Source: Rhodospirillaceae bacterium (GTDB lineage Bacteria > Pseudomonadota > Alphaproteobacteria > UBA6615). Taken from it: DNA of 64,000 nt. Positions 14,366 through 64,000 of this stretch are shown piece after piece. The notes under the pieces are model-generated. The model worked only from the letters and a program-made list of their open reading frames with translations. It was not told the origin of the DNA and did not search any database. The position numbers and the translations under genes were made by a program. Numbering within the stretch: position 1 is the stretch's first letter; every line of letters begins with the position of its first letter. Location: assembly GCA_018702955.1 (NCBI GenBank), contig JABJEK010000038.1:128002-192001 (forward strand), given 5' to 3'.

Positions 14366-14469
14366 GTCACTCTCCTGATGTGAAATTCCCTGCGATTGTA
14401 CGTTCTCGCGCGCGCTTTGACAGACCCCTACTTCCATGGGCAATCTCGCGGGATACTGAGGACAGCAAC

Positions 14470-16894: not shown

Positions 16895-19778
<2,884 letters not shown>

Positions 19779-19807
<29 letters not shown>

Positions 19808-34191: not shown

Positions 34192-34200
34192 GTTCGTCTC

Positions 34201-35811: not shown

Positions 35812-35898
35812 CGTGTCGCCCCTAAAATCATTCAACGTCAAACCCGCCAAACAGCACGGCTTTCACCCTGCTTGTTGCAGGCGCGAAGCCGCATCGCG

Positions 35899-45845: not shown

Positions 45846-46537
45846 AGACCCTATTCATCGCATTAGCCGGCCTTCTTCTTGCCGTCGTGGCGCCGTTGCC
45901 TGCTCACGCGCAAGTGCCGCCGGGCTAGAACGAGATCGAGGCTTATGACGGGCTGTTCCGGGCTGCCGCTAACGGTGATGTCGACGCCATCAACCGGCTG
46001 GTTACCGAGGGGGCGAAGCTAAACGCACGCGATGGCCGCAAACGCACGCCCCTGATGGTCGCCGCACACCTGCGCCAGTACGACGCCGCGCGCGCCCTGA
46101 TCGCAGCCGGTGCGAACGTCGACGCATTCGATGCCGACCGGTATGACGTGATCACGATCGCCGCAGTGGCCGATGACCCTCAAATGCTGCGCATCGCGAT
46201 CGCAGGTGGTGCCAACACCAGCCTGGTAACAAGCATCTATGACGGCACCGCGCTGATCGCCGCAGCACATCTGGGCCATGACGAAGTGGTGCGTACCCTG
46301 ATCCAGTTTGACGCGCCGCTGGACCACATCAACAATCTGGACTGGACGGCGCTGATCGAGGCGATCGTTCTGGGCGACGGCGGGCCGCGCCATGTCGCGA
46401 CCGTCAGGGCGCTCGTCGATGCCGGTGCGGATGTGGACATTGCCGACGGGCGCGGCGTCCGCCCACTCAGCCTCGCGCGCCAACGCGGCTATGCCGAAAT
46501 CATCGAAATTCTGGAGGCGGCAGGCGCCAAACCCTGA
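45842..46537 (+). pseudogene. secreted ankyrin-repeat protein interrupted by an in-frame TAG (45926-45928) between the signal peptide and the first repeat
   Basis: ATG 45842 overlaps the MFS stop (ATGA). MKTLFIALAGLLLAVVAPLPAHAQVPPG-TAG-NEIEAYDGLFRAAANGDVDAINRLVTEGAKLNARDGRKRTPLMVAAH... all in one frame. ORF track only shows the 160-aa downstream part. Confidence 0.6.
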
Positions 46538-46574
46538 TGCCCTCTCCGACTTGCATGCATAGAAGGACCCCAGC

Positions 46575-47180
46575 ATGAACACTGAACTCGAAGACCGGCT
46601 AAGCATAAGAGCCCTTGTGGAGAACTGGGTCGTGTGGCGCGATGCCGGCATGTGGGACCGGTTCCGTACGGTCTGGCACGACGACGGGGTGATGGTCGCC
46701 ACCTGGAAACAAGGCACGGCGGACGAGTTCATTGCCATGAGCCGCGCCGGTTTCGAGAACGGCATCAACGTCCATCATTTCCTCGGCGGCAATTCCATCG
46801 ACCTGGCGGGCGATCGGGCCATCTCCATGACCAAGATGACCATCGCGCAGCGCGCCGAAGTTCATGACGTGTTGGTCGACGTGGTCTGCACCGGCCGCTT
46901 CTATGACTTCTTCGAACGTCGTGACGGGCGCTGGGGCCTCGTCCTGCGCCAGCCGATCTATGAGAAGGACCGGATGGACCCGGTCGACCCCGCGGCCGAT
47001 CTCGAACTCGAGAAGGGCGTCCTCGATTCCTATCCCGAGGGCTATCGGCACCTGGCCTATCTTCAGTCGCGCAACGGCATGGATGTGAAGCGCGACCTGC
47101 CCGGCGTGCGCGGTCCCGAGGTTGAAGCTCTTTATACCAGAGGCCAAGCCTGGCTCGACGGTGCGGACTCGCCGTTTTGA
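46575..47180 (+). CDS. NTF2-like (SnoaL/limonene-epoxide-hydrolase-like) small protein
   Basis: 201 aa. Fold assignment is weak. Confidence 0.45.
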   Translation: MNTELEDRLSIRALVENWVVWRDAGMWDRFRTVWHDDGVMVATWKQGTADEFIAMSRAGFENGINVHHFLGGNSIDLAGDRAISMTKMTIAQRAEVHDVLVDVVCTGRFYDFFERRDGRWGLVLRQPIYEKDRMDPVDPAADLELEKGVLDSYPEGYRHLAYLQSRNGMDVKRDLPGVRGPEVEALYTRGQAWLDGADSPF

Positions 47181-47225
47181 ACAACACCCATTAGTCTGTC
47201 GGCGTTTTCTCGGAGGAATTTGAAT

Positions 47226-49541: not shown

Positions 49542-49803
49542 GTCCCCCGCGCAATTGATGCGTGGCCGACACATGACACGTGCTTGGCAAGGCGAATAGG
49601 CATCGCCCGCGTGGCTGGCGTTGCCTGGAAGCCGTGCCCACCTTGCGTTCAAGCCTCACGTCATAGTGAACGGAAGGTGGGGACGAAATCGGCCCCAATT
49701 GCCCTGTTCCAGACATGAAAAGGTTGATATCGGCCATCAACCTATGGATAGTACGTGAATAATAACCGTCTTATATAAAACCAAGCCTGCCAGGGAGGGT
49801 ACC

Positions 49804-50823
49804 TTGTTCAAATCATTGAGGTATCTCGCAATTGCAGCTGCGGCGTTGCCGTTTGTTGCGACTGCCAATACGGCGAGTGCACAGGATCTCGTCGTCGCCG
49901 CCGCCGGCAATCCCGGCGGTCTTGCTGTTTTCGTGGCCCAGGAAAAGGGTTTCTTCGCGAAGAACGGCGTCGACGTGAAGGTCGAAATTCGCAACACCGG
50001 CTCGGAGCTCTCCAAGGGCCTGCGCGCGGGCGATTTTGACTTCGCACCGGCCGCCTTCACCAACCTGGGTGCCGCTCTCGAGCGTGGCCTGGATGTCCGC
50101 GGCATTGTCGGCTATGTCGGCGCGGCGTTCGAGAAATCCACCTCTGACGCAGTCGTTGCGCTCATCGCGGGCCCCAATTCCGGCATCAACTCGGTTGCGG
50201 ACCTTAAAGGCAAAAAGGTCGGCGTGACGTTCGGTTCGACCGGCGACGTTTGGCTGCTTCAGGCCCTGAAGCAAGCTGGTCTGAGCTCCAATGACGTCGA
50301 TCGCGTCAACACCCGCCCGCCGGGCCTCGTGTCCGTACTCGACACCGGTGGCGTGGATGCCATTGTTGGCTGGGAGCCGTTCAACTTCCGCGCCCTGCAA
50401 AAGGTCGCAGGTTCCAAGGAAGTCAAGCGTGGCGGCGACCTCGTTTGCTTCTGTGCTTATCTGCACGGCAACCCGGAAAGTGTCTACAAGGACGAAGCGG
50501 CAACGCAGAAGCTTGTGGACGCCATGTCCGAGGCCGCTGCGTATGTGCGCAACCCCGCTAACAAGCAGGAAGTTGCCGAGATCGGCACTCGTTTCGTCAA
50601 CATGACGAAGGAAGAAGTTCTGGCCGGCCTCGATTTCTGGGTCTACGACCCCCGGATCGGTCCGAACACGAGCGCTGCCTTCGAGAACGCCAACGCGCTT
50701 CTTCGCGAGCAGAAGAAGATGAAGAAGCCTTTCCCGGCGGCTGACTATCTGGACTCCAAGTTCATCGAATCGACGATGAAGCGGCATCCGGAGTGGTTCG
50801 CTGACCTTGGCGGCGCAAGCTAA
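49804..50823 (+). CDS. ABC transporter substrate-binding protein, NMT1/THI5-like (NitT/TauT family)
   Basis: TTG start 6 nt after GGGAGGG. Signal peptide MFKSLRYLAIAAAALPFVATANTASAQ. Confidence 0.8.
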   Translation: MFKSLRYLAIAAAALPFVATANTASAQDLVVAAAGNPGGLAVFVAQEKGFFAKNGVDVKVEIRNTGSELSKGLRAGDFDFAPAAFTNLGAALERGLDVRGIVGYVGAAFEKSTSDAVVALIAGPNSGINSVADLKGKKVGVTFGSTGDVWLLQALKQAGLSSNDVDRVNTRPPGLVSVLDTGGVDAIVGWEPFNFRALQKVAGSKEVKRGGDLVCFCAYLHGNPESVYKDEAATQKLVDAMSEAAAYVRNPANKQEVAEIGTRFVNMTKEEVLAGLDFWVYDPRIGPNTSAAFENANALLREQKKMKKPFPAADYLDSKFIESTMKRHPEWFADLGGAS

Positions 50824-50863
50824 GCCGTTAGGTATTTCAGAAGCACATCAATTTTGATGACAT

Positions 50864-50894
50864 GACGGGCGCGAAACTGTTTTTCGCGCCCGTC
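50864..50894 (+). terminator. perfect 13-bp stem-loop GACGGGCGCGAAA-loop-TTTCGCGCCCGTC between the binding-protein and ATPase genes (partial terminator/attenuator)
   Basis: Seen directly at 50864..50894. No U-tract follows, so more likely an mRNA-stabilising or partial-termination hairpin setting SBP:ATPase stoichiometry. Confidence 0.4.
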
Positions 50895-50911
50895 AAACCT
50901 TCAGGAACATC

Positions 50912-51709
50912 ATGACCACCGACGCAAAACTCATCGTTCAGGGGCTCGCCCACCACTACCCCGACGAATACACAGGTGAATCCGTTCACGCGCTGCAGGA
51001 CATCAACCTGCAGATCCACGAGAACGAGTTCGTCGCAATCGTAGGCCCCAGTGGCTGCGGAAAAACGACATTCCTCAACATCATCGCCGGCCTGCTTCCC
51101 TATCGCGAAGGCCGCGCCATGGTGGATGGTGTCGAAATTCGCGGACCGGGCCCGGACCGAGGCGTCGTGTTCCAGGAACACGCGATTCTGCCATGGCGGA
51201 CCGTAAACCGGAACATTGGTCATGGCCTCGAAATACGCAAAGTTCCCAAAGCGGAGCGCGAGCGCCGCGTGCAGGAGTATGTGGACCTGGTCGGCCTGTC
51301 CGGCTTCGAGGACCGCTACCCCCACGAACTATCCGGTGGCATGAAGCAACGTGTCGCCGTGGCCCGCACGCTCTGTGCAGATCCCGTGATTATGCTGATG
51401 GACGAGCCGTTTGCCGCCGTCGATGCACAGACCCGTATCACGCTCCAGGATGAGCTCAACCGGGTCGTCATGGCGACCAAGAAAACCATCCTGTTCATCA
51501 CTCATTCGGTCGAGGAAGCTGCCTTCCTGGGCGATCGCTGCATCGTCTTCTCGCGGCGCCCCGGCATGGTCAAATCCGAGATCAAGATCGATATTCCACG
51601 CGAAGAGCGCTTGTGGAAAGACATGGTGAACAACACCCGCTTCACCGAAGCGCGCGACGAAATCCTGAGCCTGGTGCGCTCGGAGGTCACCAGCGATGTC
51701 GACGGTTGA
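50912..51709 (+). CDS. ABC transporter ATP-binding protein (NitT/TauT family)
   Basis: Walker [23 protein letters not shown] signature, Walker B LLMDEPF. Confidence 0.9.
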
Positions 51710-52511
51710 TACCGCGCCGATCCGGCGCAAATCTTTCAAGAAAATGGTCACCGACAGCCGGGCGATCCAGCTGGTCATTCTGCTCGTCGGCGTTTTGATC
51801 CTCTGGGCCATCATCTCCGCAGTCATCGAACGCCCGGATCGATACCTTCCCTCGCCGCTCACGACGCTCTTCTCTTCCGTCGACCTGCTGCAAAAGGGCG
51901 TATTGACCAGTTTCTATGCCGACACGCTGACCCGTCTGGTAATCGGTAGCATCCTGGGAATTGGCCTCGGCATTCCGTTCGGCCTGTTGCTCGGCCTGAA
52001 TCGCAACATCGCGGACATGTTCTACCCGCTGATGAATTTCTTCCAGTCTGTGTCGGGTATCGCCATTTTCCCGGTGATCGTCATCTGGTTCGGGAATAGC
52101 AACACGACCGTGATGATCGTGATCCTGTACACGGCCTTCTTCCCGATCGCCTTCAACGTCCTATCCGGCGTTCGCTCGGTGCCAATGCGTTACATCAGCG
52201 CCGCACGCACACTTGGCGCGTCGCGGTTCCAGATCGTGAAAGACGTATTGTTGCCCGGCGCCATGCCTTCGGTCGCCATCGGGTCGCGCCTGTCTATCGG
52301 GTTCGCCTGGCGCGCCGTGATTGCCGGTGAAATGCTCGCGGGCCAGGCGGGCCTCGGCAACATGATCTTCGCGGGTCAGGAACTCGACAACACCGCACAG
52401 ATCATTCTGGGCATGATGCTCATCGGACTGACCTGGATCATGCTGGACCATTATCTACTGCGTCCGCTTGAATCCGATACCATCGAACGCTGGGGGCTCG
52501 TACAACGATGA
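51696..52511 (+). CDS. ABC transporter permease (NitT/TauT family)
   Basis: 271 aa, six TM segments, EAA-like loop. Confidence 0.85.
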
Positions 52512-53368
52512 CCGCCATTAACGAATTTTCAGTTGCCGTTCAGCGCAAATTTGGCCGTCAGCGCCTGCGCAAATTCGGCCTCGGAATCATTCCGTTCATT
52601 GTCCTGATTACCCTGTGGCACATGAACACGATCTTCGTCTGGTTCGATCCGGTGGAAATTCCGCCGATTGCAGATGTCTGGGATGCCATCTTCTGGCTCC
52701 AAAGCGATTGCCCGGGGATTCTCGCCGCTATTGAAGGCCACAATGGCTGCCAGTTGACCAACAACATCTCTTCGTCAATCGCCCGTGTGATCCTGGCGAT
52801 GGCTGTCGGTGTTCCGCTGGGTGTCGCATTCGGCATCATGGCCGGCATGAACCGCGTTGTTTCGGCTTATCTTGAGCCAATTGGCGTGTTCATGAACTCG
52901 GTCTCCGGCATTGCCTGGATCCCGCTCGCCATTGTCTGGTTCGGTGTGGGCTGGGAAACCACCCTCTTCATCATGCTGAACACGATCTTCTGGTTGCTGT
53001 TCTTCAATACGATGATGGGCGTACGCGCCGTACCAAAGGTTCTCATCCAGGGCGTATATACGCTGGGCGGAAACCGGCTCGACGCGATCCTGCAAGTCTA
53101 CCTGCCGGGGGCAATGACCTCGATTATCACCGGCCTGCGCATGTCCATGGGATTCGGCTGGCGCGCGTTGATTGCGGCCGAGATGATCGGCGGCGACAGT
53201 GGGCTGGGCTTCATGATTTTCGTATCGTCCGCAGAGTTCAAGACCGAGGAAGTCTTCCTCGGCGTGATCCTGATCTCCCTTATTTTCCTCGCGACCGACC
53301 GATGGATTCTCGTGCCACTTGAGAAGTGGACCATCGAGCGGTGGGGCCTGGTCTGGAAGCCTACTTGA
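52508..53368 (+). CDS. ABC transporter permease, second subunit
   Basis: 286 aa, paralogous to 51696..52511. Confidence 0.85.
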   Translation: MTAINEFSVAVQRKFGRQRLRKFGLGIIPFIVLITLWHMNTIFVWFDPVEIPPIADVWDAIFWLQSDCPGILAAIEGHNGCQLTNNISSSIARVILAMAVGVPLGVAFGIMAGMNRVVSAYLEPIGVFMNSVSGIAWIPLAIVWFGVGWETTLFIMLNTIFWLLFFNTMMGVRAVPKVLIQGVYTLGGNRLDAILQVYLPGAMTSIITGLRMSMGFGWRALIAAEMIGGDSGLGFMIFVSSAEFKTEEVFLGVILISLIFLATDRWILVPLEKWTIERWGLVWKPT

Positions 53369-53369
53369 T

Positions 53370-53744
53370 ATGACCTCACAAGAAATGGATGAAGTCCGCC
53401 CGGTTCGCCGGCGACGGGCTTGGTACAAACGTCGGGACATCCTGTTCATTGCGTTCGTCGCAGCCGTCTGGCTCGGCTGGGGAGGCTATGGCCTCGTGAC
53501 CGGTCCCACGCGTATCACAGATGCACTGGAAACCGCCCTCGACGCGGACCCCAAGACCGTCAATCTGCTTGTCACGGCCAAATTCAGGCCCGAACGCTTC
53601 CACTCGAACGTCTACAATAATTATGGCGTGCAGCGTGGAACCGAAGGACGGGTTACGAAACTGTTCCGGGTTCGACCATCAGGCGTCCGATGGCTCTCTC
53701 AACAGTACTGGATTGAACAGATCGACGTCATTCCACCCGAGTGA
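53370..53744 (+). CDS. hypothetical small membrane-anchored protein, translationally coupled to the permease
   Basis: ATG 53370 in TGATATG overlap with the permease stop. Arg-rich N-terminus then one TM helix (ILFIAFVAAVWLGWGGYGLV). C-terminal about 80 aa of unknown fold. Confidence 0.4.
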   Translation: MTSQEMDEVRPVRRRRAWYKRRDILFIAFVAAVWLGWGGYGLVTGPTRITDALETALDADPKTVNLLVTAKFRPERFHSNVYNNYGVQRGTEGRVTKLFRVRPSGVRWLSQQYWIEQIDVIPPE

Positions 53745-53833
53745 TCGCTAAACGGCGATTCCCTTGCCAATTGGCCGTCCGACCTTCTAAAACCCGGCTC
53801 GCATCAATTTCCAACGAGCCGGCGGCCCTACCC

Positions 53834-54724
53834 ATGAACGATGTCAGCACGCCCGACGCGCCCCAGCATTTCGACCGGCGCTATATTCTGAAACTGTCCT
53901 GTCCCGACCAACGCGGCATCGTCGCCGCTGTTGCGAGCTTCCTTGCCGAGCAGGATTGCAACATCCTGGAATCGGCGCAGTTCGACGACGAGATGTCCGG
54001 ACAATTCTTCATGCGCACCGTATTTGGTGCCGGTGTGGCAACCCCGAGCATCGACAACATCTCGGCGGCATTCGGCCCCATCGCTTCTCGTTTTGCGATG
54101 GAATGCTCGATCCATGACCTCCAGGTAAAGCCGAGGGCGCTGATTCTGGTCTCCAAACCGGGACACTGCCTGAACGATCTGCTTTACCGAACCAGTTCTG
54201 GTTCACTGGGCCTCGAGGTCGCAGGTATCGTATCCAACCACCCCGATCAGCAGCCCCTCGCCGACTTCTACAATCTCGACTATCACCACCTGCCGGTGAC
54301 GCCAGAGACCAAAGCGGGTCAGGAAGCGAAAATTCGGGATCTGATCGATGAGACCGGCGCCGACCTGATCGTCCTTGCACGTTACATGCAGATCCTGACG
54401 CCGGAGATGTGCGCGTTCCTGAGCGGCCGCTGCATCAATATCCATCATTCATTTCTGCCGGGCTTCAAGGGCGCCAAACCCTATCACCAGGCGCATGCGC
54501 GCGGGGTGAAGCTCATTGGCGCCACCGCTCACTATGTGACCCCCGATCTGGATGAAGGCCCGATCATCGAGCAGGAAACCAGCCGGGTGAGCCACGCGCA
54601 CACACCCGAGGACATGGAGCGGATCGGGCGTGATCTGGAAAGCGTCGTACTCGCCCGCGCGGTGCGCTATCACATCGAACAGCGGGTATTGCTTCGCGGC
54701 GACCGAACAGTCGTCTTTTCCTAA
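53834..54724 (+). CDS. purU: formyltetrahydrofolate deformylase
   Basis: ACT domain (YILKLSCPDQRGIVAAVASFLAEQDCNI) followed by formyltransferase core (HHSFLPGFKGAKPYHQA, GATAHYVTPDLDEGPII). Confidence 0.9.
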   Translation: MNDVSTPDAPQHFDRRYILKLSCPDQRGIVAAVASFLAEQDCNILESAQFDDEMSGQFFMRTVFGAGVATPSIDNISAAFGPIASRFAMECSIHDLQVKPRALILVSKPGHCLNDLLYRTSSGSLGLEVAGIVSNHPDQQPLADFYNLDYHHLPVTPETKAGQEAKIRDLIDETGADLIVLARYMQILTPEMCAFLSGRCINIHHSFLPGFKGAKPYHQAHARGVKLIGATAHYVTPDLDEGPIIEQETSRVSHAHTPEDMERIGRDLESVVLARAVRYHIEQRVLLRGDRTVVFS

Positions 54725-54748
54725 TTCTCTTCGCCTGGCCGTCTTCGC

Positions 54749-55267
54749 CTAGCGTTCCCGGAAGGCCTCGGACCGGGTCTTCAGTACCGGCTGAATCAAA
54801 TAATCCAGCACCCGCTTTTCGCCGGTGTGGATATCGATCGTGGCCTGCATCCCCGGAATAATCGGCAACGTCCCATCCGCCCCCAAGGTGCTATCCGTGG
54901 TCTCGACGACGACACGGAAGTAATGCTGCCCACTGCGGTCCGTATCGGCATCCGCCGCGATACTCACCACCCGTCCCTCAAGACCGCCATAGCGAACGAA
55001 ATCATAGGTGCTGACCTTCGCTACGGCCCGCTGCCCCACCTCCACATGACCGATATCGCGCGGATCCACGCGCGCCTCGATCAGAAGACGCTCGCGCGAA
55101 GGGACGATCTGCATGATTGCATCCCCCGGGCCAACAACCCCGCCAATCGTGTGATAGGACAGGTTTTGGACCACGCCCTCGATCGGACTGGCAATCACCG
55201 CGCGTGAACGTTGTTCCGTTGCTTTTACGAGGCGCTCTTGCTCGCGCGCGATTTCCAGTTCAACCAA
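54749..55267 (-). pseudogene. C-terminal fragment (~170 aa) of an HlyD-family type I secretion membrane-fusion protein
   Basis: The homologous part begins mid-domain (coiled-coil end, then ...GEKRVLDYLIQPVLKTRSEAFRER). No N-terminal TM or lipoyl region. The upstream sequence in this frame runs into the PAS ORF in a different frame. Confidence 0.6.
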
Positions 55268-57750
55268 GGTGATCTGTTCGGATGCATATCAAAGAGCAGC
55301 TCCGCAAGCTCACTGAACTCCATCCCCGGCCGCATGACATCCGCTAACTTGGGATAGAGATTCGCGTAGGCATCGTTGCTCAGAACTAACCGATCGTCCT
55401 CATCCCAAAGCAGGAAACCGTCGTGCAAGCTACCAATGGCATCTGCAAGCCGTATTTCCGCCTGCCGGATCGCGGTGATGTCCGTGCGAACGGCGACCGC
55501 TCCACCTTCTTCGGTATGACGGCGTGACACGCGCACGACACGGCCATCATCGAATCTGCGTTCAAAGTCGACTTCCTCACCGTGCATCCGGAATTGTTCT
55601 TCAATCCATTCCTCTTCACGACCGAGGGCATCCTTAACTTTCCCGCTGTATGCAAAGACACGGATCATGTCATCGAATGCCATTCCGATATGTATCTGGT
55701 CGACCGCATCGCCAAAATCTCGCGCCCAGCTGCTGTTATAGGCGGCGAGCCTGTCGTTCCCGTCGAACAACACAAAGCCATCCTGAATGGCCTCGATCGC
55801 GTCCCGCAATCGCATCTCGACCCGCTTCAGTTCGGTCGCCTCCGAGTTCAGGACAACAACACCACCATCTCGCGTATTGTTGGCCGAGACGACATAGGTG
55901 CGATCATCGGGAAAGCTAACCTCGACATCACCCTCGGGATTTCGGTGCTGCTCGACACGTTCATCGATCCACGCATCGAGATCGGAAGTATCGGGAACCA
56001 GAATACCTGTCTCGACCGCCATGCGGATCACGTCGCGGATGTTCATCCCGACTTCGATCTCGCCCCCAAGCGACTGAAACATTTCAAGATACTTGCCGTT
56101 GGCGATGACCAGACAATCATCCTTGTCGTAGAGCGCAAAGCCATCGCGCATACTTTCAATCGCATCGGTCAGGCGATATTCAGCATGCTTCATTTCGGTA
56201 ATGTCCGACCTGAGGGTCACAATGCCGCCGTCGGTGGTGCTGTGCGATGCCACCCTCAGCGTCTTCGCGCCAATCTGAAGCTCCTGCAGGGTGTGATCTA
56301 CCGCGTGCTTGGCGACCTGATTGTCTATCCACTCATCCCTGTCGATCGCATGCCCCTGCATTTCGACAAGATCAAAGGTGAACCCCATCAGCTCTCGAAA
56401 AGTGACCCCTGGCACCACCCGGTCCGCATATTCGCCAAAGTCCCGACGGTATCGCTCGTTCGCCACCACCAGACGATCATCGGCATCGTAAAGCACGAAG
56501 CCATCATTGAGGCTTTCGATCGCATCGCGCAGATGTGCCTCGGCGCGTTTGACCTCGGTGATGTCGGTACGAATACCAACGATGCAGCCATCGTGCATCC
56601 GCCGGTCCGTGATCAGAATCCAGCGACCTTCCGTTGTCTCCATTTCATGGTGCTGGCCGTTGTCTGCAGTGTGAACTACGCACATACGCTCTACCCACGC
56701 CTCCGGATCCGCAATCACCTCAGGGTCGGCGTAATGACCTGTTTCAATACCCAGGCGAAGAACATCCCTGAAATGCATGCCCGCGCCCTCCACCATCGCC
56801 GGCATGAACGGGAAAAACTCACGGTATCTGGAGTTGTAGCGAACGATCCGATCATCGGAATCATAGAGAATGAAACCATCCGAAAGAGTTTCGATCGCTT
56901 CGGCAAGAAGGCGTTCGGCCTGATCGGTTTCTGTTTTCGCCTTTTCAGCCTCGCGACGCGCCTTTCCGAGATCCTGCTCGCGCCGCCATTCCTCATCCAC
57001 ATCGCGAACCGCACAATAGAGTTGCCCCATCTGGTCAGCCGTGATGTGCCAGTCCGTCCAACGTGAGCTTCCCGAACCGTCGATCACCCGGACTTTAAAC
57101 CGTGCGGTCTCCTGCCCCGCGATCAGATTGTCGAGCGCGCGCTGAACGATTGGCTGGTCTTCCTAGAAGACCAAGTTTATCAGGGGCTCGCCAGATAATG
57201 CGGCGGCATCACGCCCCAGAATTTTTTCCCACTCCTGATTGACGGTATGAAGCCTGCCATCGCTGCCGGCCATTCCCAGAAGGTCGTCCGACAACTCGAA
57301 AAACCGCTGATAGCGCTGACGCGAGCGCGTCACATCGCGCAACGCCTCTTCATTTCGGCGCTGGTCCGTGACGTCGCGAAAACGGGTGACAAAGCCGCTT
57401 TCGATCGGTCGACCGTGAATTTCAAGAAAGGCGCCGTCCGGACGTTGGCGCGTGAGAGTATAGGCATCGCCCGGCGCGAACAATGAGATGACTTGCGTCG
57501 TTAGTTCCTCGGCATCCCCGGGTCCATAGTCTCCGCGCTCCGCCGCAAAACGTACAGACTCGATCCAATCCTGCCCCGGCTTCATGAGCTCCGCAGGTAT
57601 ATCCAGGAGTTCCTGTGCCAGCGCATTCGACGTCACGACGCGCAATTCGGAATCGAATATGATGACGCCGCCACCGAGCGTATTCAGAACACCCTGGAGC
57701 ATGCTGCTCGTATCTTGCGTCGAACCTGCCGAACTTCCGTCCATCACCAT
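55225..57750 (-). pseudogene. tandem-PAS-repeat protein (about 7 PAS modules, no output domain) split by an in-frame TAG at 57163-57165
   Basis: ORFs 57163..57795 and 55225..57087 share a frame. The 25 codons between them read EDQPIVQRALDNLIAGQETARFKVR and continue into GSGSSRWTDWH.... Repeats follow the pattern RL.DAIESL.DGF.LYD.DDRLV. The C-terminus ends abruptly against the HlyD fragment. Confidence 0.55.
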
Positions 57751-57926
57751 ACCGTCCAAGCCATCTGCACGTGGCAATTCCACTTCCCGAAACAACTCTG
57801 GGCTGTATGTTGCACAGAATTCGGGCGCGCGACGTTAACTTATTTCGCCTGGCGTCAATAAATGGTTAACAGGCGGCACAGATGCGCGGTATTCGGGTGA
57901 TTTATCAGGCTCTTAGGTGACCACTT

Positions 57927-58757
57927 CTAGTTGTTAGAGACCCACTTAACTAAACTTCCAACCCACAGTCCCTCCGCGTGACCGCAGGCATATGAGGAGC
58001 CGAGATGGTCGCAGTCCGACAGGCTAACGGTCTTAACCGTACCGCCGGCGTCTTGCAGTGCCCGCGCCATTTTTTCTGCCTGCACAATGAGGTGAGGAAA
58101 ATCCCGATCGCCCCATGCCATCAGGAATGGCGGCGTATTCGTCATCGTGTGAATCGGGCTGGCGTCGGTGTCGTTTCCAGCGTTCTCGCCCAGGAAACGG
58201 GGATTCGCAGGCATTCCATTGCCCTCGGTGAAATCATAGACACCTGAGACCGGCAGCGCGCCCCGAATGACATCGGCGGGCACGCCGGCGGCTTCCTGCC
58301 AGTCGGACCGAACGGCGAGCCACGCCGCCTGATGCCCGCCTGCAGAGTGTCCGCCCACGAAGATGCGCTCAGGGTCACCGCCATGGGCTGCGATATTGTT
58401 GTAAACCCAGGCAATCCCAGCCGCTGCATCTTCAACGCCGGCCGGCCAGATGACAGCAGGAGCCAATCGGTACCCGATACTGACGAATGTTATGCCGGCT
58501 GCCGTCAGCGCCGGGGCCATAAAGGCCATCCATTCCTTGTAGCCGTTCGTCCAGCCGCCGCCGTGCATGAACGCGACGACGGTTCCGTTCGGCTCGGGTG
58601 CGGCAAATACGGCTACTTCCTGATACGGATCATCGCCATAGGCGAAGGATTCACCACTTATGCCTGCGCCCAGTTCCTGGACACGGACATGATACTTCGC
58701 GCCGATATCGGAAAAAGGTTCCTGTGGCGGATATGAATCGAGGTCGCGAAGTCCCAT
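57927..58757 (-). CDS. alpha/beta hydrolase fold-3 (HGGG-type) esterase/deformylase, arylformamidase-like
   Basis: FMHGGGWTNGY oxyanion motif. GGHSAGGHQAAW nucleophile elbow. ATG 58755-58757 overlaps the upstream stop (ATGA). Confidence 0.8.
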   Translation of the reverse strand: MGLRDLDSYPPQEPFSDIGAKYHVRVQELGAGISGESFAYGDDPYQEVAVFAAPEPNGTVVAFMHGGGWTNGYKEWMAFMAPALTAAGITFVSIGYRLAPAVIWPAGVEDAAAGIAWVYNNIAAHGGDPERIFVGGHSAGGHQAAWLAVRSDWQEAAGVPADVIRGALPVSGVYDFTEGNGMPANPRFLGENAGNDTDASPIHTMTNTPPFLMAWGDRDFPHLIVQAEKMARALQDAGGTVKTVSLSDCDHLGSSYACGHAEGLWVGSLVKWVSNN

Positions 58758-59839
58758 CAGCGTTCCTCGCGTTCAACGATCATCTTTTCATCAACGAATT
58801 TACCGCGTTCGATCACAACTTCATTGTCGAGGAGAACGGTGCAGTCCCGCATCGGCACGTCATAGTGGCCATTCGTGCTACGGCTGCCACCGCCTTGCGT
58901 GTTCGGGCCCGTGGAGAACAGGAAATTGCCAGGGAAGGTCCGCGCTGACGCGTGGGATCGCTCGGGATTGTCTCCATGCAGGGCAATATTGTACCAACGC
59001 GACTGCGGGTTCATTCCCCAACCCAGATGAGAGACCGCGTAGGGGTCTAGGTCATCCTCGGACAGCTTGTTGTCATCGAGCCAATCGGTCATCAACTTGG
59101 CGTCGAGGCCACCCTCGACCTTACGAATAAATCCATCGCGAACCTCGAGCCTCACCTCGTCCTGCACGTAGCGGCAGTAGGGCAAAATGACGATATCGCC
59201 TGGCGACATAATGACCGTTCCATTGGCGGAACCTTCATTGGGGAATGTATGGATATGCCCCACCCCCCATTGGTCGAAATGCCCGGGCTCGTCGGAATAT
59301 CCCCACTGGCTCATCACGGGAAAATCGCCCTTCGAGTAGGTCAGATCGGTACCCGCATCACTAAGAACGCGAACTTCCTTCGTCGCGGTGTAGCGCGCGT
59401 CCGCATACTTGACCGCCTCCTTCAAACCTTTCGGTGAGAGAAGCAATTCAAGGTCATCCGGTGCATCGATGATCATCAGGAACCGGGTTCCGGTCGCCAT
59501 CACCTCGCGCAGCCAGCTCGTAAACAGTGGAATATGCAGCGCCACGACGATATCGGCGGCCTTGAGAGCATCGAGCATACCGTTGATCTGGCCGATGGTA
59601 TCAACTCCGACCTTCGTCCAGGACGGGATCATATTGACGCGCATCTCATAGCAATCCGCGCCCAGCTCGTCGGCGGCCGCGAATGCCGCCTCGACATACT
59701 CCGTGCGCGTCGTGACGTCCGACAGCAACGCGACAGTCTCGCCTTTTTTGACGTTGGACATCTGGAACTGCTTGAGAAACAGGCCGGGAATTCGCCCGGC
59801 GTTGATTTCCTGATGACGGACGGCGGCTGGCGTACGCAT
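58757..59839 (-). CDS. aminopeptidase-T-fold (COG2309) protein resembling 2,5-dihydroxypyridine 5,6-dioxygenase (NicX/Hpo type)
   Basis: 360 aa. GYSDEPGHFDQWG...GDIVILPY...VSHLGWGMNPQSRW...HGD...GNFLFSTGPNTQGGG...HYDVPMRDC matches my recollection of NicX-type Fe(II) ring-cleavage enzymes. Assigned from memory, not from a search. Confidence 0.45.
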   Translation of the reverse strand: MRTPAAVRHQEINAGRIPGLFLKQFQMSNVKKGETVALLSDVTTRTEYVEAAFAAADELGADCYEMRVNMIPSWTKVGVDTIGQINGMLDALKAADIVVALHIPLFTSWLREVMATGTRFLMIIDAPDDLELLLSPKGLKEAVKYADARYTATKEVRVLSDAGTDLTYSKGDFPVMSQWGYSDEPGHFDQWGVGHIHTFPNEGSANGTVIMSPGDIVILPYCRYVQDEVRLEVRDGFIRKVEGGLDAKLMTDWLDDNKLSEDDLDPYAVSHLGWGMNPQSRWYNIALHGDNPERSHASARTFPGNFLFSTGPNTQGGGSRSTNGHYDVPMRDCTVLLDNEVVIERGKFVDEKMIVEREER

Positions 59840-60012
59840 GGCTTTCTTCTCCGCTTCAACGGGTTGAACAATTACCTCATGCTAACCGATCCATCGGGGT
59901 GGTGCGAGACGCCACACCGATGGCTCCCCGCGACAATTCGTCAAGACATCCGCCGCCCGCTGTGCTCAGATAATTCTCTGATAATCAAAAACAGAAGTTG
60001 GGGAGAAAGACC

Positions 60013-61251
60013 ATGATGCGCGCATTCACCGAGCAAAAAATGAAGCGCTTCGCCGAGCAACGCTGGATTCTGGACGCCATCATTTCGTCGGTCGGCATGG
60101 AGTGGGATCAGCCGCGGCTAGGCTACACCATGTATCCCTGCGGCCCCGACGCCGTCGGCGATTTCCGTACTGTGGGTATGCGCACCAAGAAATTCGCGGA
60201 CATGCATCGTGAATTCGCCGGCGCAGCCAAGCGCCGCGAGATCAAGGCAAAGGCCTTCGAAGCCGAGGATCGGCTGGTCTCGGCCCGCGAGAGCTACTTC
60301 ATTGCGTCCCTGCTCTACTCCGCGGCGCGCTGGCCCATCTTCGAGGCCAATGACCTGCACAAGGACTACAACCAGCGCATGGTCGATTGCTACGACAAGT
60401 ATATCGAGTTCGCGCCGCGCCCGATCGAACGGGTGGAAATCCCCTTCGGTGACGGCGTCCTGCCGGGGTTCCTCGCGCTGCCCCACGCGCCGAAGGAGGG
60501 GGAAAAGTTCCCCTGTGCCATCGGCATCGACGGCATGGATGGATCGAAGGAGATCATGTGCTCGATGTATGGCGACAAAATGCTCGAACGCGGCATGGCG
60601 AGCTTTGTCTATGACGGTCCGGGCCAGGGCGAGTGCCCGGTCAACGGCGTGTATGTGACAAAGGATAACCATATGGAGGCCGCCCAGGCCGTCTATGACT
60701 GGCTGATCCAGCACCCGAATATCGACAAGGACCGGCTGGTCATATTCGGGATCAGCTTTGGTTCATTTTTCGGTGCCCAAGCCGCCGCCCAGTTGGGCGA
60801 CAAGGTCAAGGGTGCCGCGCTCTCCTTCGTCTGCCACGAGCCCGGCTGCTATACGATTTTCAATATGGCCGCACCGACCTTCAAATTGCGGTTCATGTTC
60901 ATGGCCAACTATGACGATGAGGCCGAGTTCGACGAATTTGCCAGCGAGTTTTCGCTGGATCCGATTGTCGACCAAATCAAATGCCCCATCCTGGTCCAGG
61001 GCGGACAGGATGAGGAACTCAGTCCGGTCGAATGTTCGGAGGACTTTGTGAACAAGCTGTCCGTTCCCAAGAAGCTGGTCTTCTATGAAGGCGAGCGCCA
61101 TGCGATCGGTGGCGGGTCTGCCGCCTATCTGGGTGAGAACTGGTACACGATGCTGGCCGACTGGTGCCTGGACAGGGTGAATGACAAACCCGCACCGAAC
61201 GAATCCGTTCTCATCAACTCGCTGGGGCAGGCCGAGGCAACGCCCTACTAG
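60013..61251 (+). CDS. alpha/beta hydrolase of the FrsA / DHPON-hydrolase-like family, copy B
   Basis: ATG 60013 after GGGAGAAAG. PIERVEIPFGDG...GISFGSFFG...DDEAEFDEFAS. Colinear with copy A (43242..44510). Confidence 0.7.
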   Translation: MMRAFTEQKMKRFAEQRWILDAIISSVGMEWDQPRLGYTMYPCGPDAVGDFRTVGMRTKKFADMHREFAGAAKRREIKAKAFEAEDRLVSARESYFIASLLYSAARWPIFEANDLHKDYNQRMVDCYDKYIEFAPRPIERVEIPFGDGVLPGFLALPHAPKEGEKFPCAIGIDGMDGSKEIMCSMYGDKMLERGMASFVYDGPGQGECPVNGVYVTKDNHMEAAQAVYDWLIQHPNIDKDRLVIFGISFGSFFGAQAAAQLGDKVKGAALSFVCHEPGCYTIFNMAAPTFKLRFMFMANYDDEAEFDEFASEFSLDPIVDQIKCPILVQGGQDEELSPVECSEDFVNKLSVPKKLVFYEGERHAIGGGSAAYLGENWYTMLADWCLDRVNDKPAPNESVLINSLGQAEATPY

Positions 61252-61267
61252 AACGCATCAACAGGCG

Positions 61268-62338
61268 TCAGAAGGCGTCGGAGAATTCCGGCGCCACGGT
61301 CGTTGCGAACCGACGCAGGGTGTCGTGGCGCACATCGCGCGGCACGCCCACGGTCGCGGGATGCACCATGATGTGATTGAAGCCGATGTCGTGCAGGCGT
61401 TCGACCTGCGCGGCAACGGTTTTCGCGCTGCCGACGAAATTATGGGCGGAGAACTTGTCGATATTCTCCGGCTTCGAGAGCGCCAGGAGATTGCCGAAAT
61501 AACGATTGAACTGTTCATAGCCCTTGATGTCGGTCCAGGGTTCGCTGTCGGCCTCGTAGTGCGCACTCTGGAGCCGAAAGAACTCGGACAGATGCTGACG
61601 GGCCAGCGCGTAGGCCTCCTCGTCGGTATCGGCCATCAGGCAATGCGCAACCACCGGACGCCGGCCGGCATCGGTGAACCCCGCGCTTTCCGCACCTTCC
61701 TTCCAACTGGCCACCATCTTTTCCAGGATGTGGAACGGGAACTGACAAATATTGAGAGGTGCGACCCCCATCGCACCCGTCAAACGCGCGCTCTCCGGGC
61801 TGCCGATGGCGCCGAATAGATGAACCCTGTCGGCTTGTGGGGTGGGCCGGATGCGAAGTGTGCGGCCGATGTTGAAATGCTCGCCCTTGTAGGTGAAGGG
61901 TTCACCCGTGAGCCCGAGACGGACAATTTCGAGGCACTCGCGCAACCGGTCGCGGGCATGCTCCATATTCACGTCAAACGCGTCATACTCCATCTTCGCC
62001 GTTCCCCGGCCGATACCGATTAACAATTCAGCCTCGGTCAGATTACTCAGCATGGAGATTTCACCCATCAGACGCAGCGGGTGATACCAAGGCGCGACCA
62101 GCACCGAACTACCAAAACTCAGGCCCGGGCAGTGGGCGGCGACATGAGACATGAACAGAAGCGGGCTGGGTGTCGGGAAATAGTCCGAGAAATGATGTTC
62201 GAGCATCCAGGCGCTATCGTAACCGAGAGACTGGCCCAGCTTGCAGTCCGTGATGACCTCCTGATACAGCGCCGCGTCATCAAGGCCGCTGGCACCGACC
62301 GGCGCCACAACGAAACCAAATTTCAGACTGTCCGACAT
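61268..62338 (-). CDS. LLM-class flavin-dependent oxidoreductase, third and more divergent copy
   Basis: ATG 62336-62338 (MSDSLKFGFVVAPVG...LGYDSAWMLEHHF...). Confidence 0.85.
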   Translation of the reverse strand: MSDSLKFGFVVAPVGASGLDDAALYQEVITDCKLGQSLGYDSAWMLEHHFSDYFPTPSPLLFMSHVAAHCPGLSFGSSVLVAPWYHPLRLMGEISMLSNLTEAELLIGIGRGTAKMEYDAFDVNMEHARDRLRECLEIVRLGLTGEPFTYKGEHFNIGRTLRIRPTPQADRVHLFGAIGSPESARLTGAMGVAPLNICQFPFHILEKMVASWKEGAESAGFTDAGRRPVVAHCLMADTDEEAYALARQHLSEFFRLQSAHYEADSEPWTDIKGYEQFNRYFGNLLALSKPENIDKFSAHNFVGSAKTVAAQVERLHDIGFNHIMVHPATVGVPRDVRHDTLRRFATTVAPEFSDAF

Positions 62339-62492
62339 GTCCTTTTTCGCGCCATGCGCGCTCCCTTGGAAAAACCGTAACACCCGTGACACACCAACCC
62401 CACCGGTTTTCCGTCGTGCCCTCTGTGTCCAAAATCATTGACGCAGGCGCTCCTGGCCCCGTTCAATACGAAGGCACAGGGGGAGCTATGCC

Positions 62493-63419
62493 ATGTATAT
62501 CGATCCGCAGATCAAAAGCTTTATCGACGGCCTCGCCGAGCTGGATATGCCGCACCCGGTCGAACTCGGCCTCGAGGAAACCCGGAACGGATTTAGTCAG
62601 CTCTGGCAGCAGGTCAATCCGCCGTCACGCGAACTGGCCAAGATCGAGGATATCCAGGTGCCCGGTCCCGCCGGAGACATCCGCACGAAAGTCTACACAC
62701 CGGCCGGGGACGGCCCCTTCCCCGTGCTCGCATTCTTTCACGGCGGCGGTTGCTGCATGATGGCGCCCGAGGATTATGACGGGACGAATACAGCGTTGGC
62801 CGAAGACGCCAGTTGTATCGTCGTCGTGCCGGCCTATCGCCGCGCGCCCGAGAACCCCTTTCCGGCACCGTTGGAAGACTGTTTTGCCGTATTCACCTGG
62901 CTGCAGGCGAATGCCGCCGACATCGGCGGTGACCCAAACCGTATCGCGATTGCGGGAGACAGCGGTGGTGGCTATCTGGCGGCGGCCGTGGCCCAGGAGG
63001 CAAAGCGCGAAAGTGCAGCCCAGCCCCTCACCCAGATCCTGATCTATCCGATGACGGACATGGGCGGCCTGCCACCGAGCCGGGTCGAGGAGACGATGTT
63101 TCTTGATGACCGCACCCTGCAATGGGTCATCGGCATGCATGTAGGCGAACACCGGCTCGATCCGCGCGCCTCACCGATTTTGGAGCCCGACGTGTCGGGC
63201 CTGGCGCCGGCGCTCGTGATTGCGGCACAGATCGACCCGCTGCGTGACGAAGGCCGGGCCTATGCCTCGAAACTTCAGAACGCGGGCGTACCTGTGCAGT
63301 ACCAGATCTACGACGGGGTGGTGCACGGCTTCTTCAGCATGGGCGGCTTTTGCGACCAGGGAAATGTCGCGGTGGCCCAGGTCGTGGACGCGCTCAAGAG
63401 CGCGTTCGCCCGCAACTAA
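62493..63419 (+). CDS. alpha/beta hydrolase fold-3 esterase/lipase (HGGG, GDSGGG)
   Basis: 308 aa. FFHGGGCCM, IAGDSGGGYLAAAV, C-terminal DPLRDEG and H triad. Confidence 0.85.
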   Translation: MYIDPQIKSFIDGLAELDMPHPVELGLEETRNGFSQLWQQVNPPSRELAKIEDIQVPGPAGDIRTKVYTPAGDGPFPVLAFFHGGGCCMMAPEDYDGTNTALAEDASCIVVVPAYRRAPENPFPAPLEDCFAVFTWLQANAADIGGDPNRIAIAGDSGGGYLAAAVAQEAKRESAAQPLTQILIYPMTDMGGLPPSRVEETMFLDDRTLQWVIGMHVGEHRLDPRASPILEPDVSGLAPALVIAAQIDPLRDEGRAYASKLQNAGVPVQYQIYDGVVHGFFSMGGFCDQGNVAVAQVVDALKSAFARN

Positions 63420-63468: not shown

Positions 63469-64000
63469 CTAGAAAAGGAAATCGTCATCGTGGAGCGAAG
63501 CACGGTTGACGCCGATAAGCGTGATTTCGCTACCGGCACCCGTATCAATGATCGTGTCGGCGCCGTTCTGGCTTGAAGCATCAAGCAGTTCGGCCATGTC
63601 ATCGATGGTTGTAACGCCCGACAAGTCCAACCGGTCGTCGCTTCCCGCACCTGCAGCGAAGTCCATGACCCGGTCCGATCCGTCGCCGTCGGAGAAAACA
63701 AACAGGTCATCACCGCCATCGCCATAGAGCGTATCGTTGCCCAGATCGCCGTCGAGGATGTCGTTGCCGCCGCCACCCCGTATCAGGTTGTTCCCGACAT
63801 TGCCCGTGATCGTGTTGGCCTGGCCATCACCCGTCGCTTGAGTGTTACCGCCCCCCTGCATATCGATGATCTCGACACCGTTCGCCACGAAGATCGAACC
63901 CCACAGCTCGACCCTGTCGACACCGCTCGTGCCGCTGTCGTTGATCGTGTCGATCACGCCGACGATGTAGGTGTCACTGCCTTCGCCGCCATCCAGCAGG
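63469..64000 (-). CDS. RTX / haemolysin-type calcium-binding repeat protein, C-terminal part (gene continues beyond the right edge)
   Basis: GGGNDILDGDLGNDTLYGDGGDD nonapeptide repeats then a C-terminal secretion-signal-like tail. Stop at 63469. Confidence 0.7.
   Translation of the reverse strand, partial: LLDGGEGSDTYIVGVIDTINDSGTSGVDRVELWGSIFVANGVEIIDMQGGGNTQATGDGQANTITGNVGNNLIRGGGGNDILDGDLGNDTLYGDGGDDLFVFSDGDGSDRVMDFAAGAGSDDRLDLSGVTTIDDMAELLDASSQNGADTIIDTGAGSEITLIGVNRASLHDDDFLF

What the first reader, a model, noticed from the sequence alone, without database searches (positions are those of the whole stretch)
54749..57795. Decayed signalling/secretion locus: 7-PAS-repeat protein broken by an in-frame TAG and fused end-to-end with a truncated HlyD fragment
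ORFs 57163..57795 and 55225..57087 are one reading frame interrupted only by TAG at 57163-57165. The combined roughly 856-aa product is nothing but about seven tandem PAS modules (RL.DAIESL.DGF.LYD.DDRLV...DITE.K.AE), with no transmitter, GGDEF/EAL or other output domain. It ends abruptly where an out-of-frame C-terminal third of an HlyD membrane-fusion gene begins (54749..55267). That pattern is what a deletion leaves when it removes the output domain of a multi-PAS sensor, the T1SS ABC exporter and the 5' two-thirds of hlyD. An RTX repeat protein still sits at 63.5 kb, so the secretion substrate has outlived its exporter. It is the second in-frame TAG in this window.
Basis: seen in the sequence. 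Interest (0 to 1): 0.65.

Follow-up and report, generated by a model that had tools for sequence, protein, structure and literature searches.

The report
Rearrangement scar joining two broken genes
The front half of a large sensor-kinase gene is joined directly to the back 41% of a secretion-adaptor gene; the join is real, seen in seven other assemblies of the same marine bacterium, but it is an ordinary scar of genome rearrangement and gene decay rather than a new kind of system.

Summary
On the minus strand, one reading frame (57702..55228) holds six complete PAS domains and one cut PAS domain. It is broken only by TAG at 57163-57165, and it runs out of frame into the last 177 codons of a 432-codon type I secretion hlyD gene (54749..55283).

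- **The join is real.** The junction at 55283|55284 has at most 1 nt of microhomology. It recurs at 99.7-100% identity in seven other assemblies, including GCA_018668895.1.
- **The TAG is private.** In GCA_018668895.1 the PAS reading frame is an intact 825 codons with CAG at that position, so the TAG is a later C-to-T change found only in this MAG.
- **It is not a local deletion.** In relatives and in a strain of the same species, the kinase (about 1,700 codons: 8 PAS, HisKA, HATPase, REC, REC, Hpt) and the TolC-ABC-HlyD operon lie at separate loci, at least 626 kb apart in one closed genome.
- **The output half survives.** This MAG still carries the kinase's 3' half and its downstream neighbours on another contig. 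That favours a balanced rearrangement, most likely an inversion.

Both genes are also broken independently in sister lineages. The "second in-frame TAG" is simply the ccoN stop codon. Interest is low to moderate.

The parts
57166..57704 (-). Kinase remnant, codons 1-179: N-terminal PAS_7 domain plus the first half of a generic PAS domain. The conserved start ATG is at 57702-57704. The ORF listing extends the ORF to a TTG at 57795.
   Evidence: Pfam PAS_7 at 1.6e-26. The start matches P0323 and its orthologues, 'MLQGVLNTLGGG'.
57163..57165 (-). Private nonsense codon TAG at kinase codon 180. It derives from CAG (Gln) by a C-to-T transition.
   Evidence: L009 (99.9% identical) and L011 (same species) have CAG. 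L001 and L003 have GAA, and L002 has GAG.
55284..57162 (-). Kinase remnant, codons 181-806: second half of the generic PAS domain, four complete PAS_7 domains, and the first ~45 residues of a fifth PAS_7.
   Evidence: Pfam finds five PAS_7 matches. The last domain is cut. The DGF motifs lie at residues 275, 400, 520, 641 and 761. Identity to orthologues is 77-83% over 805 residues.
55283..55284 (.). Rearrangement junction between kinase codon 806/807 and hlyD codon 255. At most 1 nt (A) of microhomology.
   Evidence: All hlyD-side relatives lose homology at 55282/55283. Kinase-side relatives lose it at 55288 or, for L002 and L003, 55367. The junction is spanned by L009/L029 and L030-L034.
55225..55283 (-). 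Out-of-frame tail of the PAS ORF: 19 codons (HPNRSPWLNWKSRASKSAS) plus TAA, read from hlyD DNA in the wrong frame.
   Evidence: Translations.
54749..55283 (-). hlyD 3' remnant: residues 256-432 of 432 plus the TAG stop. It keeps the beta-barrel / membrane-proximal part only. NCBI annotates it as the 172-aa MBT6535435.1.
   Evidence: TIGR01843 positions 252-422 of 422. 100% identical to the C-terminal part of the intact P0321.
53741..54724 (+). purU (formyltetrahydrofolate deformylase), convergent with hlyD. It is the conserved right-hand neighbour of the T1SS locus in all relatives.
   Evidence: Pfam Formyl_trans_N and ACT. Synteny is shown.
57927..63419 (.). Conserved block upstream of the kinase: alpha/beta hydrolase, NicX-like, FrsA-like, luciferase-like and Abhydrolase_3 genes.
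   Evidence: Colinear with L001-L003 and L011.
63469..64000 (-). 3' end of an RTX repeat protein gene that runs off the window. It is 1142 aa on a JGI contig that carries the identical Abhydrolase_3 protein, where a 670-aa serralysin-like protease gene follows it.
   Evidence: Pfam HemolysinCabind, translation, and the JGI contig gene list.

Best explanation
The locus is the visible junction of a chromosomal rearrangement that cut two dispensable genes.

**What was joined (shown)**
- An illegitimate (non-homologous) join connects codon 806 of a roughly 1,700-codon multi-PAS hybrid sensor kinase to codon 255 of a 432-codon type I secretion adaptor gene (hlyD).
- The ancestral kinase architecture is PAS_7, PAS, six PAS_7, HisKA, HATPase_c, REC, REC, Hpt.
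- hlyD normally sits in a TolC-ABC-HlyD operon beside purU.

**What kind of event (inferred)**
- The event was most likely a large inversion, because the kinase's 3' half and its downstream genes remain in the genome on another contig.

**What the remnants can do (inferred)**
- The kinase promoter would still drive a PAS-only product with no phosphotransfer output.
- The hlyD piece lacks its membrane anchor, its lipoyl domain and most of its coiled-coil hairpin, so it cannot build a secretion channel.

**What happened next (shown)**
- In this MAG, a later C-to-T change (CAG to TAG, codon 180) broke the PAS-only frame as well, which is a further step of decay.
- The fusion is one of three structural alleles of the hlyD locus circulating in this marine Rhodospirillaceae species.
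For: **The junction is real and reproducible.**
- L009/L029 (GCA_018668895.1) is 99.90% identical over 11,393 bp and has the same junction.
- Five more ENA assemblies (L030-L034) span the junction at 99.7-100% identity.
- Microhomology is at most 1 nt, and the PAS gene contains no repeated k-mer of 14 nt or longer. A de Bruijn graph mis-join is therefore unlikely.

**The ancestral forms are known.**
- The orthologous kinases are full hybrid kinases.
- An intact 432-aa HlyD of the same species (L035) is 100% identical up to 55283.
- L012 has the full RTX, HK2, TolC, ABC, HlyD, purU arrangement.

**The two loci are separate.**
- Kinase-flank genes and hlyD-flank genes never co-occur within 10 kb.
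- Both loci lie on one 3,598,556-bp contig, at about 3.10 Mb and 2.47 Mb.

**The output half was not deleted.**
- P0327 (MBT6536813.1, 'response regulator, partial') lies next to the 218-aa neighbour MBT6536812.1 and GST MBT6536807.1. These fall in the same accession and locus-tag series as the window's genes.
- GCA_018668895.1 also keeps the 218-aa gene (MBT6405033.1).

**Other support.**
- GC skew has the same sign on both sides of the junction, and the sense strands of both genes are G-rich in every relative. This fits an inversion spanning the origin or terminus.
- The TAG is private to this MAG.
- TAG is an ordinary stop here, ending 20 of 51 ORF calls including ccoN and hlyD.
Against: - The reciprocal junction (hlyD 5' joined to kinase 3') was not found. 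The MAG's kinase-3' contig starts at about codon 1144, so it does not reach that junction.
- MAG bins can mix strains. The kinase-3' contig is identical in protein sequence to the corresponding part in L011, a strain of the same species with a different kinase allele. It could therefore come from a co-binned strain.
- If the ENA and NCBI copies of the closed 3.6-Mb relative contig have the same orientation, hlyD and the kinase lie on the same strand with hlyD upstream. A single inversion of that arrangement could not give this junction.
- The read-level status of the TAG is unknown.
Confidence: 0.6

Rival explanations
1. Large deletion. In the direct ancestor of this strain the kinase lay upstream of the T1SS operon on the same strand. 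One illegitimate deletion then removed the kinase 3' half, everything in between, tolC, hlyB and the hlyD 5' part. The kinase-3' contig in the bin would then come from another strain.
For: - Deletion is the commonest outcome of illegitimate recombination.
- hlyD has been cut from its 5' side by independent deletions in L015, L016, L018 and allele C.
- The kinase-3' contig protein is identical to L011's, as expected if it came from an L011-like strain.
- No hlyB or hlyD 5' sequence from a fusion-carrying MAG was seen.
Against: - In every genome examined, the kinase's 10-kb downstream flank and hlyD's 6.5-10-kb upstream flank share nothing.
- The two loci are at least 626 kb apart in the closed relative genome.
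- Two independent fusion-carrying MAGs both retain the 218-aa gene that would have been deleted.
Confidence: 0.22
2. Duplication-type junction. A tandem duplication, or a copy-and-paste transposition, of the segment running from mid-hlyD to mid-kinase creates the novel join. Intact hlyD and an intact kinase would remain at the borders.
For: - If the ENA and NCBI copies of the 3.6-Mb contig have the same orientation, hlyD (2.47 Mb, plus strand) lies upstream of the kinase (3.10 Mb, plus strand). That geometry yields a kinase-5'-to-hlyD-3' join by duplication.
- Unfused hlyD contigs 100% identical to the window exist in the same sample series (L004, L035).
- The kinase 3' half is present in the bin.
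Against: - A duplication of about 0.6 Mb is unstable and would create graph branches at the junction.
- The 192-kb contig, the 19-kb contig and five short contigs all run through the junction without a break.
- No intact kinase or intact hlyD is annotated in either fusion-carrying MAG.
Confidence: 0.08
3. Assembly or binning artefact. The junction, or the TAG, is not in any real genome.
For: - The window comes from a MAG.
- The TAG is a single-base difference from a 99.9%-identical MAG and could be a consensus error or a minority variant.
Against: - The junction appears in seven other assemblies, drawn from several sample series and contig-naming styles.
- Microhomology at the junction is at most 1 nt.
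- For the TAG alone, an artefact cannot be excluded without reads.
Confidence: 0.04
4. TAG is decoded as a sense codon in this lineage, through a suppressor tRNA or a changed genetic code. The PAS gene would then not really be interrupted.
For: In-frame TAGs at Glu or Gln positions also occur in the same kinase in L002 and L003, and in hlyD of L004.
Against: - TAG ends 20 of 51 ORF calls in the window, including ccoN, hlyD, the Abhydrolase gene and the kinase orthologues themselves.
- No tRNA gene lies in the window.
- L002 also has an in-frame TAA, and L001 and P0004 have frameshifts.
- GAG and CAG are the commonest one-step neighbours of a stop codon in a genome with high third-position GC, so TAG is the expected nonsense codon.
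Confidence: 0.03

Closest known systems
Multi-PAS hybrid sensor histidine kinases with PAS_7 (PF12860) repeats. The best-scoring curated model is NCBIfam NF041831, NahK/ErcS'.
   Same: The remnant consists of PAS_7 and PAS domains. Its orthologues (L002, L003, P0006, P0008) carry the full HisKA, HATPase_c, REC, REC, Hpt phosphorelay output.
   Different: The window copy stops inside the seventh PAS domain and has no transmitter, receiver or Hpt domain. It scores 184 bits against NF041831, whose cutoff is 1500, so it is not an equivalog of NahK.
HlyD/AprE/LapC-type type I secretion membrane-fusion proteins (TIGR01843; Pfam Beta-barrel_AprE, PF26002).
   Same: The C-terminal 177 residues are 100% identical to those of an intact 432-aa HlyD of the same species and match the end of the TIGR01843 model. 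The relative L012 has the classic TolC-ABC-HlyD operon with an RTX gene.
   Different: The N-terminal cytoplasmic/TM segment, the lipoyl domain and most of the coiled-coil hairpin are missing. No T1SS-type ABC or TolC gene was found in the 64-kb window.
Gene remnants at rearrangement breakpoints, and parallel pseudogenisation in free-living marine bacteria (general knowledge).
   Same: The junction is non-homologous, both partner genes are inactivated, and point decay followed. The same genes carry independent lesions in sister lineages.
   Different: Nothing mechanistically different was found. The unusual aspect is only how many independent lesions hit the same two genes.

Membership tests
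Hybrid sensor histidine kinase (two-component phosphorelay) | HisKA/DHp domain with the phospho-accepting His | tested here: not met
   No HisKA hit in the window ORFs. It is present in the orthologues at about residues 1040-1100.
Hybrid sensor histidine kinase (two-component phosphorelay) | HATPase_c catalytic domain | tested here: not met
   Absent from 55225..57795. It is present on a separate contig of the same MAG (P0327).
Hybrid sensor histidine kinase (two-component phosphorelay) | Receiver (REC) and Hpt domains | tested here: not met
   Absent from the window locus. Present in L003 codons 1321-1690.
Hybrid sensor histidine kinase (two-component phosphorelay) | N-terminal PAS sensor array orthologous to that of full-length kinases | tested here: met
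   77-83% identity over 805 residues to L001, L002 and L003. dN/dS is 0.11-0.13.
NahK/ErcS' (NF041831) | Score at or above the curated cutoff (1500 bits) | tested here: not met
   184.3 bits.
Type I secretion membrane-fusion protein (TIGR01843) | Full-length match including the N-terminal TM anchor, lipoyl domain and alpha-helical hairpin | tested here: not met
   Only model positions 252-422 of 422 are matched. This corresponds to residues 256-432 of the 432-aa P0321.
Type I secretion membrane-fusion protein (TIGR01843) | C-terminal beta-barrel / membrane-proximal domain | tested here: met
   HlyD_3 at 1.1e-17. PF26002 is precomputed for the hits.
Type I secretion system (operon level) | Adjacent ABC exporter and TolC-like outer-membrane protein | tested here: not met
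   tblastn with the L012 ABC and TolC proteins finds no hit of 45% identity or more in the window. Both genes are present in L012, and the 3' end of the ABC gene is present in L035.
Type I secretion system (operon level) | Another complete T1SS elsewhere in this genome | not testable with these tools
Stop-codon reassignment / amber suppression | TAG not used as a terminator; a suppressor tRNA is present | tested here: not met
   TAG ends 20 of 51 ORF calls, including ccoN and hlyD. No tRNA gene lies in the window.

The most novel reading that the evidence does not exclude
The same sensor kinase and the same purU-linked T1SS are being inactivated again and again, by different lesions, in every sampled lineage of this marine Rhodospirillaceae clade.

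- Kinase lesions: three TAGs, two frameshifts, one split ORF of unexamined cause, one internal deletion and this fusion.
- T1SS lesions: at least six different truncations, plus an orphaned hlyD and a nonsense allele.
- The kinase nevertheless shows a long history of strong purifying selection (dN/dS about 0.1).

This would be adaptive, parallel gene loss of a signalling-and-secretion pair. The intact 825-aa PAS-only ORF in the sister MAG could be a transient stand-alone PAS protein with residual (for example dominant-negative or ligand-buffering) activity.
Probability: 0.3. Interest if true: 0.5.

Novelty: new member of a known kind. Interest (0 to 1): 0.3.

Why it matters
This is a clean, reproducible example of how illegitimate recombination and later point mutation dismantle genes in an uncultured marine bacterium. 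Three structural alleles of one locus coexist at 99.8% or higher flank identity.

It matters for annotation. NCBI lists the fragments as ordinary 'PAS domain-containing protein' and 'HlyD family type I secretion periplasmic adaptor subunit' proteins, although neither can perform its family's function.

If the parallel losses are adaptive, the clade would be a natural test case for loss of a sensor kinase and a type I secretion system in the open ocean.

Tried and rejected
- **Genetic-code change or amber suppression.** I considered this because in-frame TAGs kept appearing (window, L002, L003, L004). I rejected it because TAG is a frequent genuine stop, no suppressor tRNA was seen, and TAA and frameshift lesions also occur.
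- **The 'second in-frame TAG'.** This is the ccoN/ccoO gene boundary. The TAG at 16892 simply precedes a start codon.
- **Local deletion with an ancestral HK-hlyB-hlyD order.** Synteny does not support it.
- **Assembly mis-join through PAS repeats.** There is no repeated k-mer of 14 nt or longer in the PAS gene.
- **Exact DNA pattern search of JGI metagenomes for the hlyD side of the breakpoint.** No hits.
- **JGI scan with the hlyD N-terminal part to find the reciprocal junction.** It found only a relative with an intact hlyD (L036).
- **Assigning the short kinase-3' fragments P0209 and P0210 to this species by identity pattern.** Inconclusive.
- **Relative orientation of the ENA and NCBI copies of the 3.6-Mb contig.** It could not be determined. 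GC skew shows only that both genes are on leading strands.
- **Lesions in L011.** Its N-run at 9827-9836 makes that break an assembly gap rather than a biological lesion. Its deletion of codons 268-901 is supported independently by P0328.
- **Promoter and terminator scan of 54.6-58.1 kb.** Nothing above chance.
Full report
**1.

On the minus strand, the frame from 57834 to 55228 has a single stop, TAG at 57163-57165. Pfam finds one PAS_7 and half of a generic PAS domain upstream of it. Downstream it finds the rest of that PAS domain plus five PAS_7 matches, and no output domain. The last PAS_7 is cut about 45 residues in. That gives six complete PAS domains and one partial.

The overlapping ORF 54749..55267 matches the type I secretion adaptor model TIGR01843 only at positions 252-422 of 422. 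An RTX protein gene runs off the window end at 63469..64000.

The 620-aa ORF is NCBI protein MBT6535436.1 from 'MAG: Rhodospirillaceae bacterium', on a 192-kb contig.

**2. What the PAS gene used to be**

The closest homologues are 76-83% identical and align straight across the TAG position. Their loci (L001, L002, L003) share the upstream block with the window: alpha/beta hydrolase, NicX-like, FrsA-like, luciferase-like and Abhydrolase_3 genes. They show that the gene is a hybrid kinase of about 1,690-1,707 codons.

Domain slices of L003 show what lies beyond the window's end point. These are the rest of the cut PAS_7, one more PAS_7, HisKA, HATPase_c, two REC domains and Hpt. The window keeps codons 1-806, using the numbering of P0323, the 825-aa orthologue in GCA_018668895.1.

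**3. What the hlyD piece used to be**

An ENA contig of the same species (L035) encodes an intact 432-aa HlyD, P0321. Its DNA is 100% identical to the window from 54347 to 55283 and then continues into the hlyD 5' part, with the end of an ABC exporter gene upstream. The window keeps residues 256-432.

Relatives from a genome scan place hlyD next to a convergent purU. L012 has the full set: an RTX protein, a second hybrid kinase, TolC, the ABC exporter, HlyD and purU. Every hlyD-side relative loses homology to the window at 55282/55283.

**4. The junction is real**

The breakpoint is 55283|55284, with at most one shared base. The PAS gene contains no internal repeat of 14 nt or longer.

GCA_018668895.1 (L009/L029) is 99.90% identical to the window over 11,393 bp, with 11 SNPs, and has the same junction. 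Five further assemblies (L030-L034), from several sample series and contig-naming styles, span it at 99.7-100% identity. An assembly artefact is therefore very unlikely.

**5. The TAG is a private, later mutation**

One of the 11 SNPs against L009 falls at 57165. L009 and the same-species strain L011 read CAG (Gln), and the sister species read GAA or GAG. In L009 the PAS-only frame is an intact 825-aa ORF (MBT6403900.1). The order of events was therefore truncation and fusion first, nonsense mutation second. Without reads I cannot exclude that the T is a consensus error.

I tested the idea that TAG is read as sense, because in-frame TAGs also occur in the kinase of L002 and L003 and in hlyD of L004. 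Several results argue against it.
- TAG ends 20 of 51 ORF calls in the window, including ccoN, hlyD and the kinase orthologues.
- No tRNA gene lies in the window.
- Other lesions are a TAA or frameshifts.

**6. It is not a local deletion**

Downstream of the kinase, four genomes (L001, L002, L003, L011) show the same gene order. That order is a 218-aa gene, ADH, FAA hydrolase, ACAD, glyoxalase, GST, CMD and DUF4197. None of these genes is in the 64-kb window, and none lies within 10 kb upstream of hlyD in any relative.

L001 and L014 come from the same 3,598,556-bp contig. The kinase is at about 3.10 Mb and hlyD at about 2.47 Mb.

The window's own MAG still has the kinase output half.
- P0327 (MBT6536813.1, 'response regulator, partial', 547 aa) carries HATPase_c, REC, REC and Hpt. 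It sits on a 14.3-kb contig.
- Next to it are the 218-aa neighbour (MBT6536812.1) and GST (MBT6536807.1).
- These fall in the same accession and locus-tag series as the window's genes (MBT6535431 to MBT6535439, HOK98_).
- GCA_018668895.1 also keeps the 218-aa gene.

This favours a balanced rearrangement. GC skew keeps the same sign across the junction, and both genes lie on G-rich strands in all relatives. That is what an inversion spanning the origin or terminus would leave.

I could not find the reciprocal junction, and I could not fix the relative orientation of the two database copies of the 3.6-Mb contig. I therefore give the inversion reading about 0.6. A large deletion with bin mixture gets about 0.2, and a duplication-type junction gets under 0.1.

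**7. Both genes are decaying across the clade**

Kinase lesions:

| Genome or protein | Lesion |
|---|---|
| L001 | -1 frameshift near codon 847 |
| L002 | CAG to TAG in HisKA |
| L003 | GAG to TAG in HisKA, 19 codons from the L002 site |
| P0004 | frameshift near codon 912 |
| P0007 / P0207 | split near codon 685 |
| L011 / P0328 (same species) | deletion of codons 268-901 |
| window and L009 | fusion to hlyD |

Despite these lesions, dN/dS between lineages is 0.07-0.13 at dS of about 1. The gene was therefore under purifying selection until recently.

T1SS lesions:

| Genome | State of the T1SS locus |
|---|---|
| L014 | hlyB cut at its 5' end by a phage integrase and an IS element |
| L013 | orphan full-length hlyD |
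| L015 | hlyD truncated, retained from residue 117 |
| L016 | hlyD truncated, retained from residue 157 |
| L018 | hlyD truncated, retained from residue 304 |
| L004 | in-frame TAG at codon 215 |

Within this species there is also a third allele, C, seen in L052-L056. It is 99.84-100% identical to the window below 55023. There hlyD keeps only about its last 90 codons, next to a 789-aa Fer4/cNMP-binding protein gene.

The locus therefore has three coexisting alleles.
- **A:** intact hlyB-hlyD.
- **B:** this fusion.
- **C:** the deep truncation.

**8. How it works now**

This part is inferred.
- The native kinase promoter region upstream of 57702 is intact.
- In L009 it would drive a PAS-only protein with a 19-residue frameshifted tail and no phosphotransfer capacity.
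- In the window, translation stops at codon 180. NCBI calls the downstream 620-aa ORF from a GTG.
- The hlyD remnant lacks its membrane anchor, its lipoyl domain and most of its coiled-coil hairpin, so it cannot bridge an ABC exporter to TolC.
- Whether the neighbouring RTX protein (1142 aa) and the serralysin-like protease (670 aa) still have an exporter cannot be decided from 64 kb.

**9. Verdict**

This is a real and well-documented rearrangement scar with follow-on decay. It is an instance of a known kind of event rather than a new system. The mildly interesting part is the density of independent lesions in the same two genes across lineages and within one species.

Noticed in passing
window 33466-35850 (minus strand): ccoN (COX1, 549 aa) ends with TAG at 34201-34203. 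ccoO (FixO) starts 9 nt later in the same frame.
   Followed up: yes
L001, L002, L003, L011 and proteins P0004, P0007/P0207, P0328: The orthologous hybrid kinase carries a different inactivating lesion in every close genome seen: two TAGs 19 codons apart in HisKA, two frameshifts, a split, and a 634-codon internal deletion. dN/dS between lineages is nevertheless only 0.07-0.13.
   Followed up: partly
L052-L056 (aligning to window 44761-55023): A third structural allele in the same species. hlyD is cut to about its last 90 codons at window position 55023, with a 789-aa Fer4/cNMP-binding protein gene as the new upstream neighbour. It is seen in at least five assemblies.
   Followed up: partly
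L004 positions 1-155 (ENA ERZ4201028): An unfused hlyD allele that is 100% identical to the window downstream of the breakpoint. It has its own in-frame TAG (GAG to TAG, codon 215). The otherwise near-identical L035 is intact.
   Followed up: partly
window ~58000 (compared with L011): Divergence changes sharply here. Only 1 SNP separates the window and L011 across 56901-57999, and it is the TAG site. Beyond 58000 there are 4-40 SNPs per 500 bp. This suggests a recombination boundary near the kinase start.
   Followed up: no
right of window 63419 (JGI 3300072015 contig; L001-L003, L011): A JGI contig carrying the identical Abhydrolase_3 protein has an RTX protein (1142 aa), a serralysin-like M10 protease (670 aa) and a PhyH gene between Abhydrolase_3 and BLUF. 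L001 lacks them. L002 keeps a 105-aa ORF homologous to the RTX C-terminus, and L011 has a 108-aa ORF at the same position that was not compared.
   Followed up: partly
L014 5434-9815: In the closed relative genome, a phage-type integrase and an rve-family IS transposase sit directly upstream of a 5'-truncated T1SS ABC exporter gene. This is a separate route by which the same operon has decayed.
   Followed up: partly
whole window: TAG ends 20 of 51 crude ORF calls (TGA 20, TAA 11).
   Followed up: no
window 16895-19807 (plus strand): A second, apparently intact multi-PAS/GAF histidine kinase (970 aa) lies directly after a molybdopterin oxidoreductase gene (14335-16782).
   Followed up: no
L030-L034 contig ends (window 55374-55408 and 54634-54712): Five short fusion-bearing contigs all end 91-125 nt beyond the junction on the PAS side. 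Two end at exactly 54712, beside a hairpin at 54698-54715. The clustering on the PAS side is unexplained and may reflect strain branching in the assembly graphs.
   Followed up: partly
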